Source: a virus (taxonomy: Duplodnaviria > Heunggongvirae > Uroviricota > Caudoviricetes). From it: a DNA stretch of 7,648 nt. A program made the position numbers and the translations under genes. The notes beneath the pieces were generated by a model that did not search any database, had not been told where the DNA came from, and was given only the letters and a program-made list of their open reading frames with translations. The stretch spans positions 1 to 7,648 of the IMG/VR virus record IMGVR_UViG_3300014721_000007. One strand, 5' to 3'. Shown here piece after piece: positions 3,681 through 7,648 of the stretch (positions within the stretch are counted from its first letter, which is position 1; every line of letters starts with the position of its first letter).

Positions 3681-3901
3681 GCTGCACCTCCGAGATGCTT
3701 CATGTTTTTTCCGGAGCGAAAGGCTATAAGCGGCATACTGACGCGGTAATTACGGCCCAGCGGTTCACAAACCACCTTCTGACATTCACGGTCAACCAGG
3801 CTAACACGTAGAACATGCCCTGCAGGCGTGGTGTACCACTGACCGGGGCGAGGACAACGGAAAGTCTGATTGGTAAATCGTTTGAAAATATTCCGGATCA
3901 T
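3677..3901 (-). CDS. Hypothetical small protein (74 aa)
   Basis: ORF bracketed by ATGA start/stop overlaps with both neighbours (3898-3901 and 3677-3680), which supports translation. No family recognised. Confidence 0.45.
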   Translation of the reverse strand: MIRNIFKRFTNQTFRCPRPGQWYTTPAGHVLRVSLVDRECQKVVCEPLGRNYRVSMPLIAFRSGKNMKHLGGAA

Positions 3902-5046
3902 TTGCGCCCCCTTACCTCTGAAGAGTTCAGCGACGAATGAATAAGACGGGCAAGAAATGCCGCATCGTTAATTCGGTCATACAGACTTACAGCCAGAGGT
4001 GATTCAGCTTTTTCCAGCATGGGATAAAGCTGCTGCAACCAGACCTGATGAATTGATGAAATGTAGGAATAGAGAACGCTGGCGTTATGTGCAACGTCGC
4101 TCGGTACAGCGGGCTTTGAAAGCTGTTTCTCCATCTGGTTAAAGGCATTGATGTATGCCTCTTTGAACTGGGCAGCACGTTTACCCGTGAAACCCATAGC
4201 AAGAAACGCAAAGCCATCGCGGGTTATTTGATAGCAAGGTAGTTTGCGGCCTGAAGCGTCGGTATAACCACTTAACACAAAATTGTGTTCAGCAAATTCA
4301 GCGGAGCATTCAAGGTTTCGAATTCTATCTAAAACCCGCTCGTGCCGTTTAGTAAAGTAGTTAGCAACTGCAAGAGATGTAGTGACAGCACGACCATTGA
4401 TGATCGTGATTTCAGGGTGAACAAAGGTTGGGATCGTAGCCATAATGGCAGCCTCGGTAGCAAGCTTAAAAAACTCACCACATAAGACGCCAATCATAGA
4501 GGTGGTGAGACGTACAGAGTTGGCGTTACCGGCGGCTACCCTTACCGGCGCATCTTGCGATGCCCCTGTACGCCCCACCATAATTTGGGCGTGACAAAAT
4601 AATGCGTACAAAAAAACCGCATCTACGCGGTTGTACGCGGTAGCCTTCTCCAGGACGCCAATCCCGGCACCCGCTTTATAAGGTGCCTGAACAGTGTAAC
4701 GTCCCGGAATGGCAGAATCAATGTGCTGGTGGTCCTTCACACTCAACAAAATCACGCCTGAATTTCCACAAAGGACTAAAGCACTCATGCGGGTAGTCTT
4801 TGCGAAGATAGATAACGCGCTGTGTTTCTGGCTCCCAACGAATAACATGGACATAAAGCCCTCTTCCGTCACGAAACCAGCGGTTAAGTTCCTGCACAAC
4901 TCGCCCCCCACAGTCAGGTAAAGTTCTCTGTGGTTACTTACAGCCAGGTGATTTGGTAATCTGCATTCATGCCGTAACAACAGGTGTTCAGCGACGCTGA
5001 CCACCAGCTGTTGCGACAAACGGTTATTTGCCGTTAAACTGTTCAT
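3898..5046 (-). CDS. Rha-family phage regulatory protein with an about 200-aa N-terminal extension of unknown function
   Basis: Residues about 205-310 (INGRAVTTSLAVANYFTKRHERVLDRIRNLECS...LPCYQITRDGFAFLAMGFTGKRAAQFKEAYINAFNQME) match the Phage_pRha domain. The start ATG at 5046 forms an ATGA overlap with the upstream stop, and the frame stays open for 382 codons. Confidence 0.7.
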   Translation of the reverse strand: MNSLTANNRLSQQLVVSVAEHLLLRHECRLPNHLAVSNHRELYLTVGGELCRNLTAGFVTEEGFMSMLFVGSQKHSALSIFAKTTRMSALVLCGNSGVILLSVKDHQHIDSAIPGRYTVQAPYKAGAGIGVLEKATAYNRVDAVFLYALFCHAQIMVGRTGASQDAPVRVAAGNANSVRLTTSMIGVLCGEFFKLATEAAIMATIPTFVHPEITIINGRAVTTSLAVANYFTKRHERVLDRIRNLECSAEFAEHNFVLSGYTDASGRKLPCYQITRDGFAFLAMGFTGKRAAQFKEAYINAFNQMEKQLSKPAVPSDVAHNASVLYSYISSIHQVWLQQLYPMLEKAESPLAVSLYDRINDAAFLARLIHSSLNSSEVRGRK

Positions 5047-5639
5047 GCGTTAGTTTCTCCACAGACACAAAACGCCACGACGCCCGGAGCTGCACACTCG
5101 CGGGCGTCACTCTTTTCTGGAGCGCAAAAGATTTTGTAGACCAGTGCTGCATGCTCCTGGAGCTTCGAAATTGACAGATACAACTCATCATTAATTGCTG
5201 TCTGCTCGTGTGGCTCCACTACCCCATCTTCGATTGCCGAACGAATCTGCTTTGAGTAACTCCCGATCTGTTCGATGACTTCCAGCAGGCGCTGGTTTAT
5301 ATCGGCGTTCTCTACTTCCTCAATTTCAGGAAGCGATACAAACACCCCACCAGCAGACTGTGCGACAGCATCCGCAATGTAGTGAGTGCCAGCCGCGCGC
5401 TGTAAAATCATTGCCCATCCCAGCGGGAAAATCTGATCGCCATCTGCACGAAGGCGGTTGAATAAAGCGTTCTCTGTTACATCCAGCCACTCAGCAGCTT
5501 CAGCGTAACCCCCCGGCAACGCCGCGATAGTTTTTCTGACAGCTTTCACGTACCACTCAGGCTGTTTTTCTACTTTCCAGTGATGCTTACCCACGGTTAG
5601 CCTCATCGTTCTGTGGTTTCTGTTAATCGATTTATCCAT
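5043..5639 (-). CDS. Putative CII-like / YdaT-family regulatory protein
   Basis: Sits directly downstream of the Cro-like gene. HTH-like segment GGYAEAAEWLDVTENALFNRLRADGDQ. The ATG at 5639 overlaps the cro stop (ATGGATAA) and is preferred; alternative starts are the GTG at 5708 and the ATGs at 5651 and 5606. Family assignment is from memory only. Confidence 0.45.
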   Translation of the reverse strand: MDKSINRNHRTMRLTVGKHHWKVEKQPEWYVKAVRKTIAALPGGYAEAAEWLDVTENALFNRLRADGDQIFPLGWAMILQRAAGTHYIADAVAQSAGGVFVSLPEIEEVENADINQRLLEVIEQIGSYSKQIRSAIEDGVVEPHEQTAINDELYLSISKLQEHAALVYKIFCAPEKSDARECAAPGVVAFCVCGETNA

Positions 5640-5832
5640 TAGATTTTTCATAAAGCTCAGGTTTAAATGGCAACCGTCCGCAAGTTCTATATGCAGCTTC
5701 TGCTGCACGTCCTTTTGGAATTAACTGGCCCGGACGGTTTCGCCACTGATAAACGGCTTCAGTTGTTATGCCGAAAAAAGCAGCAACTTTCTCAATACTG
5801 CCGAAGTAGCTTTCGATATCGTCAGTTGTCAT
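5632..5832 (-). CDS. Cro-like (YdaS-type) HTH repressor
   Basis: 66 aa, divergent from the CI-like gene. Motif LA..LGVS..AVSQW-like segment (VAAFFGITTEAVYQWRNRPGQLIP). GGAGG Shine-Dalgarno 4-5 nt upstream of the ATG at 5832. Confidence 0.75.
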   Translation of the reverse strand: MTTDDIESYFGSIEKVAAFFGITTEAVYQWRNRPGQLIPKGRAAEAAYRTCGRLPFKPELYEKSNG

Positions 5833-5929: not shown

Positions 5930-6556
5930 ATGGAAACGGTTGGTCAGCGTATAAAAGCTCTGAGAAGAGTTACCAGAACGTCCCAGAAAGAATTGGGTAA
6001 ATTTTGTGGAGTAAGCGACGTTGCTGTGGGGTACTGGGAGAAAGACATCAATACCCCTGGTGGGGAGGCACTTTCGAAATTAGCGAAGTTCTTCAATACG
6101 TCAATAGATTACATTCTTTATGGTGCTGAGTTTGAAGGCAAACTCGTCACAAACATGCGCAGAGTTCCTGTAATATCGTGGGTTCAGGCTGGGCAGTTTA
6201 CTGAGTGCAGGGCAGCAGAAGTGTTTAGTGAAGTGGACAAGTGGGTAGATACATCATTAAAGATTGGTGATAACTCATTTGCATTAGAGGTTAAAGGTGA
6301 CTCCATGACTAACCCTAATGGCCTCCCAACAATACCAGAAGGCGCAACAGTGATTGTAGATCCAGATGCAGAACCTCGTCATGGAAAAATAGTAATCGCT
6401 CGACTTGATGGAACAAACGAAGCTACAGTAAAAAAATTAGTCATCGATGGCCCTCAAAAGTTTTTAGTGCCATTAAATCCTCGGTATCCCAACATCCCTA
6501 TCAATGGTAATTGCCTTATCATTGGTGTAGTCAAAGGAGTTCAATACGAACTCTAA
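5930..6556 (+). CDS. CI-like phage repressor (HTH_XRE N-terminal domain plus S24 LexA-type autopeptidase domain)
   Basis: 208 aa. N-terminal HTH (QKELGKFCGVSDVAVGYWEKD), Ala-Gly cleavage motif (VQAGQF), S24 catalytic serine in GDSMTNP and lysine in VKKLV. Confidence 0.9.
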   Translation: METVGQRIKALRRVTRTSQKELGKFCGVSDVAVGYWEKDINTPGGEALSKLAKFFNTSIDYILYGAEFEGKLVTNMRRVPVISWVQAGQFTECRAAEVFSEVDKWVDTSLKIGDNSFALEVKGDSMTNPNGLPTIPEGATVIVDPDAEPRHGKIVIARLDGTNEATVKKLVIDGPQKFLVPLNPRYPNIPINGNCLIIGVVKGVQYEL

Positions 6557-6589
6557 GACCTCTCTTCTCTAACTAAGGCACCGAACTAA

Positions 6590-6626
6590 GAAAAGTTTGG
6601 TGTTTTCTCTTGCTATAATAACTAAG
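6590..6626 (+). promoter_or_regulatory. Candidate promoter with extended -10 (TGcTATAAT at 6611-6619) flanked by AACTAAG repeats
   Basis: TGnTATAAT is a perfect extended -10; the -35 is poor. AACTAAG heptamers lie at 6571, 6584 and 6620, with the last one at the predicted transcription start. Oriented toward the 6763 ORF. Confidence 0.35.
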
Positions 6627-6762
6627 TTAAGTTAGATTTTATATCAAAGATAACGAACAGGCAGGACGCCCACGAAGTAGCCGCCTGGGGCATATGAAGT
6701 CCAGGATGATTCGTTGAGTCATGTTGTGCCACTATGCACTCATGTTAAAGCAGGTGTATGAA

Positions 6763-7038
6763 ATGAAAGTCCAGATTTTAAACAATAACTGTGAAGTCGT
6801 TTGGTCATACGACATAGCCGCCCCTGTAGATCAGAGCGGCGATAGCTGGACCAATGGGAAACATCAGATTATGGCTGGAGTTGTGTTCTCTTTACGCCGT
6901 GCTTTGGAACAGGCTGAAGTATTTCCATCAGACCCTGAATGGAAATGGCCTTTTTCTATTTGTCCAAATTCGGAGAGTACATTTCAGAAAATTGGTCAGA
7001 AAGTCGCACTCGAAGAGCATCAGCCAACTGTTTCCTGA
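6763..7038 (+). CDS. Hypothetical protein (91 aa), co-oriented with and downstream of cI
   Basis: ATG at 6763 preceded by AGGTG at a 6-nt spacing. No family recognised. Its 3' 83 bp overlap the convergent ORF 6956..7201, so at most one may be real over the overlap. Confidence 0.35.
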   Translation: MKVQILNNNCEVVWSYDIAAPVDQSGDSWTNGKHQIMAGVVFSLRRALEQAEVFPSDPEWKWPFSICPNSESTFQKIGQKVALEEHQPTVS

Positions 7039-7201
7039 TTTTTTCAGGTAACTCGTCGGCATCGCAGAAACAACAACGCTCGATCATGTTGAAAGCCGAT
7101 TCGTAGAACTGTTTCTGCTGAGTGTCGCTGAGACAGGAAAAGAGCGACGTTACGATGATTTTATTAATTGCATTATCAAGTTCTTTTTCATCAAAAGTCA
7201 T
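6956..7201 (-). CDS. Hypothetical protein (81 aa), convergent with cI
   Basis: ATG at 7201 preceded by AAGGA with an 8-nt spacer. Helix-like, acidic sequence with a CCFC motif. No family recognised. Confidence 0.4.
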   Translation of the reverse strand: MTFDEKELDNAINKIIVTSLFSCLSDTQQKQFYESAFNMIERCCFCDADELPEKIRKQLADALRVRLSDQFSEMYSPNLDK

Positions 7202-7454
7202 TTGATTTTCCTTTTATGTATACGGGCTTAAAAGGATACCACCGAGCCTGAAGTGGTGAAAAGACAGGCACATAACAGCTAAGTATTTTCAACCAAAGAG
7301 AATCCTTAGCGTTGTGGTGAATGCGGCTCAGCGCACGCGGGTTAAGGTTGAGGCTGACAGTCGACCTTCTGTGGATACCCACCCGTCTGGTGTGCAACCT
7401 TCGCCAGGCACCGGGAGGCACCCGGCACCACAACTTTATGCTGTGTGTAGTCCT

Positions 7455-7501
7455 GGCGGTACCAGTTTGTACCCTTGCTTCCGGCTGGTACCGTCCTTTT
7501 T
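7455..7501 (+). terminator. Terminator-like hairpin on the + strand
   Basis: Stem 7455-7465 pairs with 7485-7495 (core GGTACCAG / CTGGTACC, 11 bp including one G-U), 19-nt loop, followed by CTTTTT (7496-7501). No U tract on the - strand. Confidence 0.4.
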
Positions 7502-7502
7502 A

Positions 7503-7589
7503 CAAAACAGAGAAGAGCATCACCGGACGACGGGCTCATAACCCAATCCATCCGGGCGGCTGCCACCGCAGGTGTTCTTCTCTGTTTTG
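7503..7589. repeat. 14-bp perfect inverted repeat CAAAACAGAGAAGA / TCTTCTCTGTTTTG enclosing a 59-nt G+C-rich segment
   Basis: Arms at 7503-7516 and 7576-7589 are exact reverse complements. The stem is extensible by about 4 more pairs with G-U pairing in RNA. No credible ORF covers it. Confidence 0.85.
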
Positions 7590-7638
7590 TGGAGAAACTA
7601 ATCGGCCTTGCAGGGTCGATATGATGAGGAGCAGCAAA

Positions 7639-7648
7639 ATGGCTAACG
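7639..7648 (+). CDS. 5' end of a gene running off the window (only ATG GCT AAC visible)
   Basis: GAGGAG Shine-Dalgarno at 7626-7631 with a 7-nt spacer before the ATG at 7639. Product unknown; too little sequence to assign. Confidence 0.25.

What the first reader, a model, noticed from the sequence alone, without database searches (positions are those of the whole stretch)
7202..7638. About 430-bp noncoding, G+C-rich, highly structured region: terminator-like hairpin followed by a long perfect-stem hairpin just before a gene start
All ORFs predicted here look like non-coding translations (Arg/Pro-rich). The + strand carries a terminator-like stem-loop with a U tract (7455-7501), then a hairpin with a 14-bp perfect stem (7503-7516 / 7576-7589) around a 59-nt G+C-rich loop that contains further short inverted repeats. 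The next gene's Shine-Dalgarno and ATG (7626-7641) lie about 40 nt further on. The layout suggests a regulated leader (attenuator, or processive-antitermination RNA of the nut or HK022 put type) or a structured small RNA. Which element it is cannot be determined without folding and comparative data.
Basis: seen in the sequence. Interest (0 to 1): 0.55.

Follow-up and report, generated by a model that had tools for sequence, protein, structure and literature searches.

The report
Prophage small-RNA domain, terminator, leader hairpin
The 430-base gap before the phage gene yfdP is a real non-coding, three-part RNA leader: a divergent copy of the known but functionally unexplained prophage small RNA STnc100, then a transcription terminator, then a conserved branched hairpin; it is not an HK022-put or lambda-nut antiterminator.

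Summary
Both hairpins exist at the stated coordinates, fold far better than shuffles, and are conserved with compensatory changes. The window is an SfV-like lambdoid prophage. The region lies between the immunity genes (cro, cI, PL/OL) and yfdP, the first conserved gene of the N-less early-left operon.

It has three + strand RNA modules:
- **7311-7434:** a helix-closed, pseudoknotted domain with the exact 22-mer CACCGGGAGGCACCCGGCACCA. It is a divergent member of the prophage sRNA family STnc100/PasD (Rfam RF02076: 39.5 bits, gathering score 47, E 4e-7; own model 85 bits).
- **7455-7501:** an intrinsic terminator.
- **7497/7502-7595:** a three-way-junction hairpin conserved upstream of yfdP across Enterobacterales, with no Rfam family.

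A covariance model of HK022-type put RNAs finds its controls but nothing here. No N homolog was recognised.

Best reading: transcripts ending at 7501 give an STnc100-type small RNA, and yfdP-int expression needs read-through. The molecular function of the domain is unknown.

Outside the finding, a conserved element right after PL (6654-6715) is a better candidate for N-independent antitermination.

The parts
7238..7257 (+). Conserved hairpin ACCACCGAGCCUGAAGUGGU that marks the left edge of the conserved yfdP-leader module
   Evidence: Similarity to many phages with other immunity regions starts at about 7236-7239. The same motif precedes the leader in Mangrovibacter, Atlantibacter, Kosakonia and the record labelled Chryseobacterium (L153). 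The scan flagged it as terminator-like on the - strand, but the trailing T-run is not conserved.
7261..7289 (+). Candidate sigma-70 promoter for the small RNA: -35 AAGACA 7261-7266, 17-nt spacer, -10 TATTTT 7284-7289; predicted start near 7296
   Evidence: It matches 8 of 12 consensus positions, below the 9 of 12 the promoter scan required, and the Rfam STnc100 match starts at 7289. This is weak evidence. The -35 is altered in some E. coli copies, and the site is absent in ST64B and other genera.
7311..7434 (+). STnc100/PasD-type RNA domain. P1 is 7311-7319 with 7426-7434; junction AAU is 7320-7322; P2 hairpin is 7323-7338; pseudoknot P3 is 7344-7350 (AAGGUUG) with 7395-7401 (CAACCUU); P4 is 7387-7392 with 7402-7407; P5 is CCGGG-AGGCA-CCCGG at 7411-7425; the family 22-mer is 7409-7430
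   Evidence: Rfam RF02076 gives 39.5 bits, E 4.3e-7, over 7289-7504. My own family model gives 85.1 bits, E about 1e-18. On 86 distinct relatives, 93% of cells are paired against 37-49% when partners are slid, and 18 of 24 pairs show double changes. The pseudoknot is found in 28 of 36 representatives against 12-20% in controls.
7455..7501 (+). Intrinsic (Rho-independent) terminator: 13-bp stem, 15-nt loop, U5 tract at 7497-7501
   Evidence: Fold z = -3.7. It is conserved upstream of yfdP in the Enterobacterales loci examined other than Buttiauxella L140, with stem sequences that differ but stay complementary: GGCGGUACC, GGCGGCGUC, GGUGGCGAC.
7502..7590 (+). Hairpin 2: a three-way-junction leader motif. 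The lower stem is 7502-7516 with 7576-7590, extended to 7497-7521 with 7571-7595. One inner hairpin carries the almost invariant GGCUCAUAACCCAAUC; the other inner hairpin is variable
   Evidence: Fold z = -7.7. In 15 diverse yfdP leaders, 38 consensus pairs are predicted and 8 have compensatory double changes. No Rfam family matches; the best hit is a plant miRNA at E 0.37.
7601..7620 (+). Small hairpin between hairpin 2 and the ribosome-binding site
   Evidence: It is predicted in the minimum-free-energy fold. A hairpin at the same place is conserved in other genera: GGCGG-UGGCA-GCCGCC (columns 165-182).
7626..7641 (+). Shine-Dalgarno GAGGAG (7626-7631) and ATG (7639-7641) of yfdP, the first conserved gene of the early-left operon (yfdP-yfdQ-yfdR...xis-int)
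   Evidence: Annotations of SfV and of E. coli ECONIH4.
6610..6715 (+). Context outside the finding: the PL-type early-left promoter (-35 TTGCTA at 6610, -10 TAGATT at 6633), overlapped by cI operators, and the conserved promoter-proximal RNA element LE1 (6654-6715)
   Evidence: The operator repeats AACTAAG-N4-CTTAG are shared with the cro/cI intergenic region. LE1 is conserved just after strong promoters downstream of cI in lambdoid-type phages of five genera in whose annotated early-left regions no N gene is listed. Its stem II covaries.

Best explanation
The region is the untranslated RNA between the immunity module and yfdP of an SfV-like lambdoid prophage in which no N homolog was recognised. 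It holds three + strand modules.

1. **Small-RNA domain.** A helix-closed, pseudoknotted domain of about 124 nt that is a divergent member of the STnc100/PasD family of prophage small RNAs.
2. **Terminator.** An intrinsic terminator that gives this RNA its 3' end. The product would be roughly 190-210 nt if it starts at the candidate promoter near 7296, or it could be a processed piece of the PL transcript.
3. **Leader hairpin.** A conserved three-way-junction hairpin that abuts the terminator's U-tract and precedes the yfdP ribosome-binding site.

**Proposed working (inferred).** Most polymerases stop at 7501 and release a stable small RNA with a terminator hairpin and U-tail, the features typical of Hfq-bound sRNAs. 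This is what canonical STnc100 genes do downstream of the late-gene antiterminator Q. Only polymerases that read through express yfdP, yfdQ, yfdR, xis and int. Hairpin 2 then acts on the read-through mRNA. The most likely role is an RNase III or stability element, or a translation element, like the processed hairpin in the lambda N leader.

**Shown here:** the structures, family membership of the core, conservation and covariation, the genomic layout, and absence of any put match.

**Inferred:** the transcript ends, Hfq binding, trans-action, and the role of hairpin 2.

The biochemical function of the conserved STnc100 core is not known for any member.
For: **Family identity.**
- The sub-threshold but significant Rfam match covers domain plus terminator.
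- The 22-mer is exact, and the P1, AAU junction, P2 and P5 layout is shared with more than 120 viral contigs.
- My family model scores 85 bits.
- Covariation is strong and strand-specific, with many G-U pairs.
- The pseudoknot covaries.

**Canonical copies behave as small-RNA genes.**
- They pass Rfam's threshold at 55-161 bits.
- They lie between Q and holin/endolysin genes.
- They are usually followed by a terminator and occur in tandem arrays; in the array read (L022) each repeat unit shows a promoter-like site and a terminator.
- Where a good promoter match exists, the -10 element ends 6-7 nt before the P1 helix in 14 of 18 cases.

**Literature on relatives.**
- PasD and STnc100 relatives are abundant and Hfq-bound. 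PasD is northern-verified and has RIL-seq partners (bioRxiv 10.64898/2026.05.13.724894).
- One STnc100 copy (STnc100_4) is northern-positive in EHEC (PMC5331693).
- EcOnc27 is an Hfq-binding sRNA that overlaps an STnc100 copy (PMC12711010).

**Conserved leader layout.** Terminator and hairpin 2 are conserved with compensatory changes upstream of yfdP in many genera.

**No promoter after the terminator.** I saw no promoter-like site between the terminator and yfdP, so yfdP depends on read-through.
Against: - There are no expression data for this copy.
- The candidate promoter is weak and is not conserved outside close E. coli/Shigella relatives. The RNA may therefore be only a segment of the PL transcript.
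- The Rfam score is below the gathering threshold.
- Window-type relatives in phage P1 (upstream of tciA), in Buttiauxella, and next to accessory genes have no terminator after the domain. They look like 5' leaders of mRNAs rather than free small RNAs.
- The invariant junction and loop nucleotides suggest a specific ligand or partner, which the small-RNA model does not identify.
Confidence: 0.55

Rival explanations
1. **Cis-acting processive antiterminator.** This would be a functional analogue of HK022 put, but unrelated in sequence. The pseudoknotted domain would bind the transcribing RNA polymerase and let it pass the terminator at 7501 and later terminators, replacing the missing N protein.
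For: - No N homolog was recognised in these phages, yet a conserved terminator sits in front of the early-left genes.
- The domain always lies upstream of the terminator.
- Canonical members start at the transcription start, as putL does.
- Invariant unpaired nucleotides and a compact pseudoknot fit a protein or polymerase ligand.
- Others have guessed at RNA-mediated antitermination for ST64B-like early-left operons (PMC12315714).
Against: - The put model finds nothing.
- Canonical copies lie directly downstream of genes from three unrelated Q antiterminator families and, going by northern blots of relatives and the Rfam family boundaries (PMC5331693), give terminated RNAs of about 200 nt. 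This is the opposite of what an unconditional cis antiterminator ahead of lysis genes would give.
- Tandem arrays in which every copy has its own terminator do not fit.
- A better-placed candidate exists at PL, the LE1 element at 6654-6715.
Confidence: 0.12
2. **Riboswitch-like attenuator.** The pseudoknotted domain would be a ligand-sensing aptamer that decides whether the terminator at 7455-7501 forms.
For: The layout is aptamer-like: a P1-closed, pseudoknotted core with invariant junction nucleotides and variable peripheral stems, followed by an intrinsic terminator and then genes. One of those genes is a 5'-deoxynucleotidase.
Against: - The spacing between P1 and the terminator varies from about 20 to 70 nt in relatives, and I found no conserved alternative pairing.
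- Members in P1 and Buttiauxella lack a terminator.
- Arrays of copies sit in late operons next to tRNA genes.
- Downstream genes are unrelated across members.
Confidence: 0.06
3. **tRNA-like processing or stability module.** The coaxial P1 and P5 helices would mimic a tRNA acceptor/T-arm minihelix. They would direct RNase P or RNase E processing, or protect the 5' end, so that the long operon transcript is cut into stable pieces.
For: - P5 joins the 3' strand of P1 with no spacer, as a T-arm joins an acceptor stem.
- Canonical copies cluster with phage tRNA genes, and the P1-phage copy sits in the tRNA-containing ban operon.
- The same window carries a match to Rfam's C4 antisense RNA family. 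From my own knowledge, C4 RNA of phages P1/P7 is processed by RNase P.
Against: - ARAGORN finds no tRNA or tmRNA in the window.
- The CCA-like bases are paired inside P1 rather than forming a free 3' tail.
- The P5 loop has 5 nt, not the 7 of a T-loop.
- There is no experimental hint.
Confidence: 0.1
4. **Protein-coding.** The region would be a degraded gene, as in the PGAP annotation 'hypothetical protein, frameshifted'.
For: PGAP annotates a frameshifted pseudogene at window 7314-7624, and several phage records list hypothetical proteins there.
Against: - The ORFs are short and Arg/Pro-rich, and the one tested, the 75-aa ORF 7314-7541, has no PHROG family.
- Substitutions between relatives preserve base pairs, not reading frames.
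- Insertions and deletions of arbitrary length occur in the loops.
Confidence: 0.02

Closest known systems
STnc100 (Rfam RF02076) and its relatives PasD1/PasD2 and EcOnc27 (sRNA103): Hfq-associated small RNAs of lambdoid prophages in Salmonella, EHEC and EPEC
   Same: - The closing helix UGGUG/CACCA, the AAU junction, a P2 hairpin with a GCG loop, and the P5 hairpin CCGGG-AGGCA-CCCGG with the identical 22-mer.
- The pseudoknot between the strand after P2 and the P4 loop.
- An intrinsic terminator 20-70 nt downstream.
- Prophage location.
   Different: - It scores below Rfam's gathering threshold, 39.5 against 47.
- P2 has a different sequence (GCGG...CGC instead of CCCC...GGGG), and the inner arms differ.
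- It lies in the early-left operon upstream of yfdP, not between Q and the lysis genes.
- It is a single copy, not an array.
- The predicted start is about 15 nt before P1, not at P1.
HK022 / HK639 put RNAs (polymerase-utilisation antiterminator RNAs)
   Same: - Both are non-coding RNAs in the early operons of lambdoid phages lacking a recognised N (for HK022, a functional N antiterminator), upstream of terminators.
- Both are structured on the sense strand.
   Different: - There is no sequence or covariance-model similarity.
- put is two stem-loops of about 70 nt. This element is a multi-helix pseudoknot of about 124 nt.
- putL starts 2-3 nt after the PL start (PMC9378689). This element is about 650 nt downstream of PL.
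Lambda 6S RNA and StxS: short constitutive transcripts from the late promoter PR' that end at tR' (named from my own knowledge, not retrieved here)
   Same: The logic is the same: a promoter-proximal terminator releases a stable small RNA, and the genes behind it are expressed only on read-through. Canonical STnc100 copies occupy this same position after Q.
   Different: I recall no sequence relationship to lambda 6S RNA or StxS; this was not tested here. The copy in the window is in the early-left operon, not the late operon.
Lambda N-leader: nutL followed by an RNase III-processed hairpin just upstream of the N ribosome-binding site (from my own knowledge)
   Same: Hairpin 2 is a long, nearly perfect helix of about 25 bp with branched top, placed just upstream of the first conserved gene's ribosome-binding site in the PL-operon leader.
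   Different: There is no sequence similarity, no nut site and no N gene. RNase III cleavage was not tested.

Membership tests
STnc100 (RF02076) | Covariance-model score at or above Rfam's gathering score (47 bits) | tested here: not met
   39.5 bits, E 4.3e-7, full-length match over 7289-7504. Canonical copies score 55-161 bits, and no other window-type copy tested (P1, ST64B, L140, L016, L064, L135) reaches the threshold either.
STnc100 (RF02076) | Closing helix P1 (NNN-UGGUG with CACCA-NNN) followed by the junction AAU | tested here: met
   GUUGUGGUG at 7311-7319 pairs with CACCACAAC at 7426-7434, and AAU is at 7320-7322. The pairs covary across 86 sequences.
STnc100 (RF02076) | 3' hairpin P5, CCGGG-AGGCA-CCCGG, joined directly to the 3' strand of P1 (the 22-mer CACCGGGAGGCACCCGGCACCA) | tested here: met
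   Exact match at 7409-7430. The same 22-mer occurs in at least 120 viral contigs. The stem covaries to GGUGG/CCACC in distant yfdP leaders.
STnc100 (RF02076) | P2 hairpin and the pseudoknot between the strand after P2 and the P4 loop (the pseudoknot is my addition and is not in the Rfam structure) | tested here: met
   P2 is 7323-7338. The pseudoknot is AAGGUUG 7344-7350 with CAACCUU 7395-7401. A match of at least 6 bp occurs in 28 of 36 cognate pairs, against 20% of non-cognate and 12% of shuffled controls.
STnc100 (RF02076) | Intrinsic terminator downstream, giving an RNA of about 200 nt | tested here: met
   Terminator at 7455-7501; the Rfam alignment includes it.
STnc100 (RF02076) | Location between Q and the lysis genes; expression and Hfq binding | tested here: not met
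   The location differs: it is between cI and yfdP, whereas canonical copies lie between Q and holin. Expression and Hfq binding cannot be tested with these tools.
HK022 put RNA | Sequence and structure similarity to putL/putR (two stem-loops, about 70 nt) | tested here: not met
   Model R1 scores 96.2, 89.6 and 46.4 bits on the controls. No hit at E <= 10 with default filters, and the best score is 3.7 bits with filters off over 6500-7648.
HK022 put RNA | Position just downstream of PL, or downstream of cro in the PR operon | tested here: not met
   PL is at 6610-6638 and the domain starts at 7311.
HK022 put RNA | Factor-independent antitermination that depends on the zinc-binding domain of the polymerase beta' subunit | not testable with these tools
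   Needs in vitro transcription or rpoC mutants.
Lambda-type nut site | An N-family protein encoded in the early-left operon | tested here: not met
   The two ORFs between cI and yfdP (orf33 and ORF81) have no Pfam match and fall only in PHROG families of unknown function. None of the fetched annotations (SfV, E. coli ECONIH4, ST64B, mEp460, 2H10) lists an N gene in the stretch shown.
Lambda-type nut site | boxA followed by a boxB hairpin | not tested
   I did not scan for boxA. P5 has boxB-like dimensions (5-bp stem, 5-nt loop), but its loop AGGCA is not the GNRA-like pentaloop of boxB; this is my own reading.
Intrinsic terminator | G+C-rich hairpin immediately followed by a U-tract on the transcribed strand | tested here: met
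   13-bp stem followed by C-U5. It is conserved with changed but complementary arms.

The most novel reading that the evidence does not exclude
The early-left operon of lambdoid phages lacking a recognised N (SfV, ST64B, mEp460 and relatives) may be controlled by an RNA-only antitermination system unrelated to put. The STnc100-type pseudoknot, alone or together with the PL-proximal element LE1 and the yfdP leader hairpin, would modify RNA polymerase so that it reads through the conserved terminator at 7455-7501. That would also give the widespread STnc100 family its first molecular function.
Probability: 0.12. Interest if true: 0.8.

Novelty: new variant of a known kind. Interest (0 to 1): 0.4.

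Why it matters
STnc100/PasD RNAs are among the most abundant prophage transcripts in pathogenic E. coli and Salmonella, yet they have no known function.

This copy shows three things about the family:
- It extends beyond Rfam's threshold into the early operon of SfV/ST64B-type phages and into phage P1.
- Its core is a pseudoknotted fold with strong covariation.
- It is used both as a free small-RNA gene and as an mRNA leader.

The surroundings also expose two conserved RNA elements that match no Rfam family: the yfdP leader hairpin and the PL-proximal LE1. Both bear on an open question, namely how lambdoid phages without N get past their early terminators.

For annotation, the 'frameshifted hypothetical protein' called here in many E. 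coli genomes should be replaced by non-coding RNA features.

Tried and rejected
- **put membership.** Built a covariance model from HK022 putL and putR, HK639, phiEt88, CobraSix, S9-5 and UPF_BP1. The controls were found; the window and four related phages were negative.
- **Local alignment of putL to the window.** Only short chance-level matches. The best is an 11-nt run, GUCCAGGAUGA, in LE1.
- **Rfam at a permissive E-value on 7000-7648 and 6540-7320.** Only STnc100 was meaningful. The MIR1094, DicF, ftsZ-DE, hairpin ribozyme and Sphinx hits are at chance level.
- **tRNA/tmRNA scan.** Nothing found.
- **- strand terminator at 7257-7238.** Rejected because its T-run is not conserved in other genera.
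- **RfaH ops site in the terminator arm (GGCGGTACCAGT).** Compared by eye with the ops consensus as I recall it. It differs at position 8 and at the last two positions, so I did not pursue it.
- **Riboswitch-style alternative pairing between the 3' strand of P1 and the terminator.** None found by inspection.
- **E. coli K-12.** The CPS-53 prophage keeps only about the last 30 nt before yfdP, so K-12 transcriptome data cannot help.
- **Whether ORF81 (- strand, 6956-7201) is a real gene.** This would place a divergent promoter inside 7202-7260. tblastn finds it only in four near-identical phages, though it matches phrog_3311. Unresolved.
- **King et al. 2011 (PMC3187212) on put-like RNAs.** The paper could not be retrieved.
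Full report
**Where the window comes from.** The 499 bases around the finding match SfV at 99.8% and are present in 2,785 of 5,426 complete E. coli genomes. Transferring the SfV and PGAP annotations gives this layout:

| Feature | Window coordinates | Strand |
|---|---|---|
| cro | 5632-5832 | - |
| LexA-like cI repressor | 5930-6556 | + |
| orf33 | 6763-7038 | + |
| Unannotated ORF (ORF81) | 6956-7201 | - |
| The finding | 7202-7638 | |
| yfdP start | 7639 | + |

yfdP is followed by yfdQ, yfdR, xis and int.

The repeats AACTAAG-N4-CTTAG occur both between cro and cI and just after cI. Those after cI overlap a good promoter, with -35 TTGCTA at 6610 and -10 TAGATT at 6633. So PL/OL lies at about 6570-6640. 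The finding sits inside the early-left transcription unit, about 650 nt from its start.

No N-like protein is encoded there. orf33 and ORF81 have no Pfam match and fall only in PHROG families of unknown function.

**The observation.** Both hairpins are real.
- The terminator is a 13-bp stem (7455-7467 with 7483-7495) followed by C-U5. Its fold has z = -3.7.
- The second hairpin has 15 perfect pairs (7502-7516 with 7576-7590). It extends to about 25 bp and includes the terminator's U-tract. Its 'loop' is two further hairpins. Its fold has z = -7.7.
- The whole stretch 7289-7648 folds with z = -4.9.

The short Arg/Pro-rich ORFs are not genes. The 75-aa ORF 7314-7541 matches no PHROG family, PGAP can only call a 'frameshifted' pseudogene, and relatives differ by pair-preserving changes and loop indels.

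**What lies upstream of the terminator.** Rfam at a permissive threshold aligns 7289-7504 end to end with STnc100 (RF02076). The score is 39.5 bits, E 4e-7, below the gathering score of 47.

The match is driven by a helix (GUUGUGGUG 7311-7319 with CACCACAAC 7426-7434) that encloses several hairpins and ends in CACCGGGAGGCACCCGGCACCA. That exact 22-mer occurs in at least 120 IMG/VR contigs. Those contigs also share UGGUG-AAU and a P2 hairpin at the 5' side, while the middle is very variable.

I built a family model from 26 representatives. It scores the window at 85 bits and also finds copies in these places:
- ST64B.
- Phages P1 and SJ46, immediately upstream of tciA in the ban operon.
- A Buttiauxella prophage.
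- More weakly, mEp460 and three other genera.

On 86 distinct sequences aligned to the model:
- 93% of cells are paired, against 37-49% when the partners are slid.
- 18 of 24 pairs show double changes.
- No shuffle reaches any of the observed measures.

The many G-U pairs and the U-tract fix the strand as +.

**A pseudoknot.** The 6-11 nt after P2 are complementary to the loop of P4 in sequence after sequence, with quite different letters:

| Copy (locus) | Strand after P2 | P4 loop |
|---|---|---|
| This window | AAGGUUG | CAACCUU |
| L008 | AUCAGC | GCUGGU |
| L023 | CCAGUC | GACUGG |
| L016 | AGACUGACAAA | UUUGUCAGUCU |

A match of at least 6 bp occurs in 28 of 36 cognate pairs. The controls give 20% for non-cognate pairs and 12% for shuffled loops. 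In the window a local hairpin, 7344-7351 with 7361-7368, competes with this pairing.

**What the canonical relatives are.**
- Copies that pass Rfam's threshold (55-161 bits) lie between Q antiterminator genes of three different families and the holin/endolysin genes.
- They often lie next to phage tRNA clusters.
- They often form tandem arrays of 2-5 copies with a period of about 250 nt; in the array read (L022) each unit shows a promoter-like site and a terminator.
- Where a good sigma-70 match exists, its -10 element ends 6-7 nt before UGGUG in 14 of 18 cases. The RNA therefore starts at P1.

The literature treats these as Hfq-associated prophage small RNAs of unknown function:
- STnc100 copies are expressed, and one (STnc100_4) is northern-positive, in EHEC (PMC5331693).
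- EcOnc27 overlaps a copy downstream of stx2B (PMC12711010).
- PasD, a structural relative, is abundant in Hfq RIL-seq in EPEC (bioRxiv 10.64898/2026.05.13.724894).

An unconditional cis antiterminator placed in front of lysis genes and just after Q would make no sense. This weighs against the put-like reading for the family as a whole.

**The put and nut hypotheses.** I located HK022 putL and putR. I collected five further put RNAs, including the annotated HK639 element, and built a covariance model.
- It recovers the controls at 96, 90 and 46 bits.
- It reports nothing at E <= 10 in the window, SfV, the E. coli prophage, ST64B, mEp460 or 2H10.
- With filters off, its best score over 6500-7648 is 3.7 bits.

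The element is therefore not a put RNA. There is also no N gene to go with a nut site. boxA and boxB were not scanned for.

**The leader as a whole.** I fetched 31 yfdP loci from 20-odd genera. In most Enterobacterales yfdP is preceded by the same series of parts:
1. A hairpin ACCACC...GUGGU (7238-7257 here).
2. A long hairpin A, which this window has lost.
3. A domain closed by GUUGUGG/CCACAAC. This is either STnc100-like, as here, or a shorter variant.
4. GCUGUGUGUAGUC.
5. The terminator.
6. Hairpin 2.
7. A small hairpin.
8. The ribosome-binding site.

In 15 diverse leaders, hairpin 2 has 38 consensus pairs, 8 of them with compensatory double changes, and an almost invariant GGCUCAUAACCCAAUC. 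No Rfam family covers it.

In some genomes (Pseudocitrobacter) and in ST64B, no annotated gene or obvious coding stretch separates PL from this leader. The whole is then one untranslated PL leader several hundred nt long, and orf33/ORF81 are insertions in the SfV lineage. E. coli K-12 has lost everything but the last ~30 nt.

**Mechanism.** I saw no promoter-like site between the terminator and yfdP. yfdP-int expression must therefore come from read-through of 7455-7501.

Transcripts that stop there carry the STnc100-type domain and a hairpin-plus-U tail. That makes a small RNA like its canonical relatives. A weak promoter-like site (AAGACA-17-TATTTT, 7261-7289) could make the RNA independent of PL. 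However, the site is not conserved beyond close relatives. The 5' end is therefore open.

Hairpin 2 is too long and stable to be a switch. By position and shape it resembles the RNase III-processed hairpin of the lambda N leader. This comparison rests on my own knowledge and was not tested.

What lets polymerase through the terminator is unknown. The best-placed candidate is not in the finding. It is LE1 (6654-6715), which begins about 10 nt after the PL start.
- It is conserved in that position in lambdoid-type phages of Salmonella, E. coli, Yersinia, Pectobacterium and Aeromonas whose annotated early-left regions list no N gene.
- It has an invariant core and covarying stems.
- It is neither in Rfam nor a put RNA.

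**Verdict.**
It is a structured small RNA plus a terminator in an operon leader. It is not put or nut, and there is no evidence for an attenuator switch.
- The thing is a new, sub-threshold variant of a known family, in a new genomic context. Its function is as unknown as that of the family.
- The pseudoknotted architecture, the yfdP leader hairpin and LE1 are the parts that deserve follow-up.

Noticed in passing
window 6654-6715 (+), with the promoter at 6610-6638: LE1 is a conserved RNA element that starts about 10 nt after the PL-type promoter. It occupies the same place downstream of cI in lambdoid-type phages of five genera whose annotated early-left regions list no N gene. It has an invariant GGCAGGACGCCCACGAAGUAGC and covarying stems. 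It is not in Rfam and is not put by covariance model. It is a candidate N-independent antiterminator at the position HK022 uses for putL.
   Followed up: partly
window 7497-7595 (+); loci L138-L163 upstream of yfdP: Hairpin 2 is a conserved three-way-junction RNA motif with no Rfam family. It is linked to yfdP across Enterobacterales and directly abuts the terminator's U-tract. The invariant GGAGAA after it can pair with the U-tract.
   Followed up: partly
loci L014, L021, L022, L030, L061, L125 and others: Canonical STnc100 genes occur as tandem arrays of 2-5 diverged copies with a period of about 250 nt. Each has a terminator. They lie between Q and holin and often beside phage tRNA gene clusters.
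   Followed up: partly
window 4498-4585 (-) and 4610-4686 (-): C4 antisense RNA (68 bits) and isrK (60 bits) both pass Rfam's thresholds. They lie inside the mechanically listed 382-aa ORF 3898-5046 (-), which resembles a Rha/antirepressor. That ORF's start is probably over-extended. The phage appears to carry a P1-type C4/antirepressor immunity module in its PR operon. ST64B has the same pair.
   Followed up: no
window 6763-7038 (+) and 6956-7201 (-): orf33 (phrog_3195) and an unannotated 81-aa ORF with a strong ribosome-binding site (phrog_3311) overlap by 83 nt on opposite strands. The 81-aa ORF occurs only in four near-identical phages. Which of the two is expressed is unresolved.
   Followed up: partly
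L004 2502-2625 (phage P1, NC_005856 70078-70201) and L005 (phage SJ46): P1-like phages carry a window-type copy of the domain in the ban operon, 30 nt upstream of tciA with no terminator between. P1 pairs (GUUGCGGUG with CACCGCAAC) compensate relative to the window, and the P5 loop is AAGCA in P1.
   Followed up: partly
L016, L054, L064 (IMG/VR contigs): Window-type copies also precede accessory genes that encode membrane-anchored coiled-coil proteins, next to a portal gene on the opposite strand. They are followed by a long hairpin rather than a terminator. In these contexts the domain serves as an mRNA leader.
   Followed up: no
L134 (E. coli K-12 CPS-53, upstream of yfdP): K-12 has lost the whole structured leader. 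Only about 30 nt before the yfdP start codon are still alignable.
   Followed up: yes
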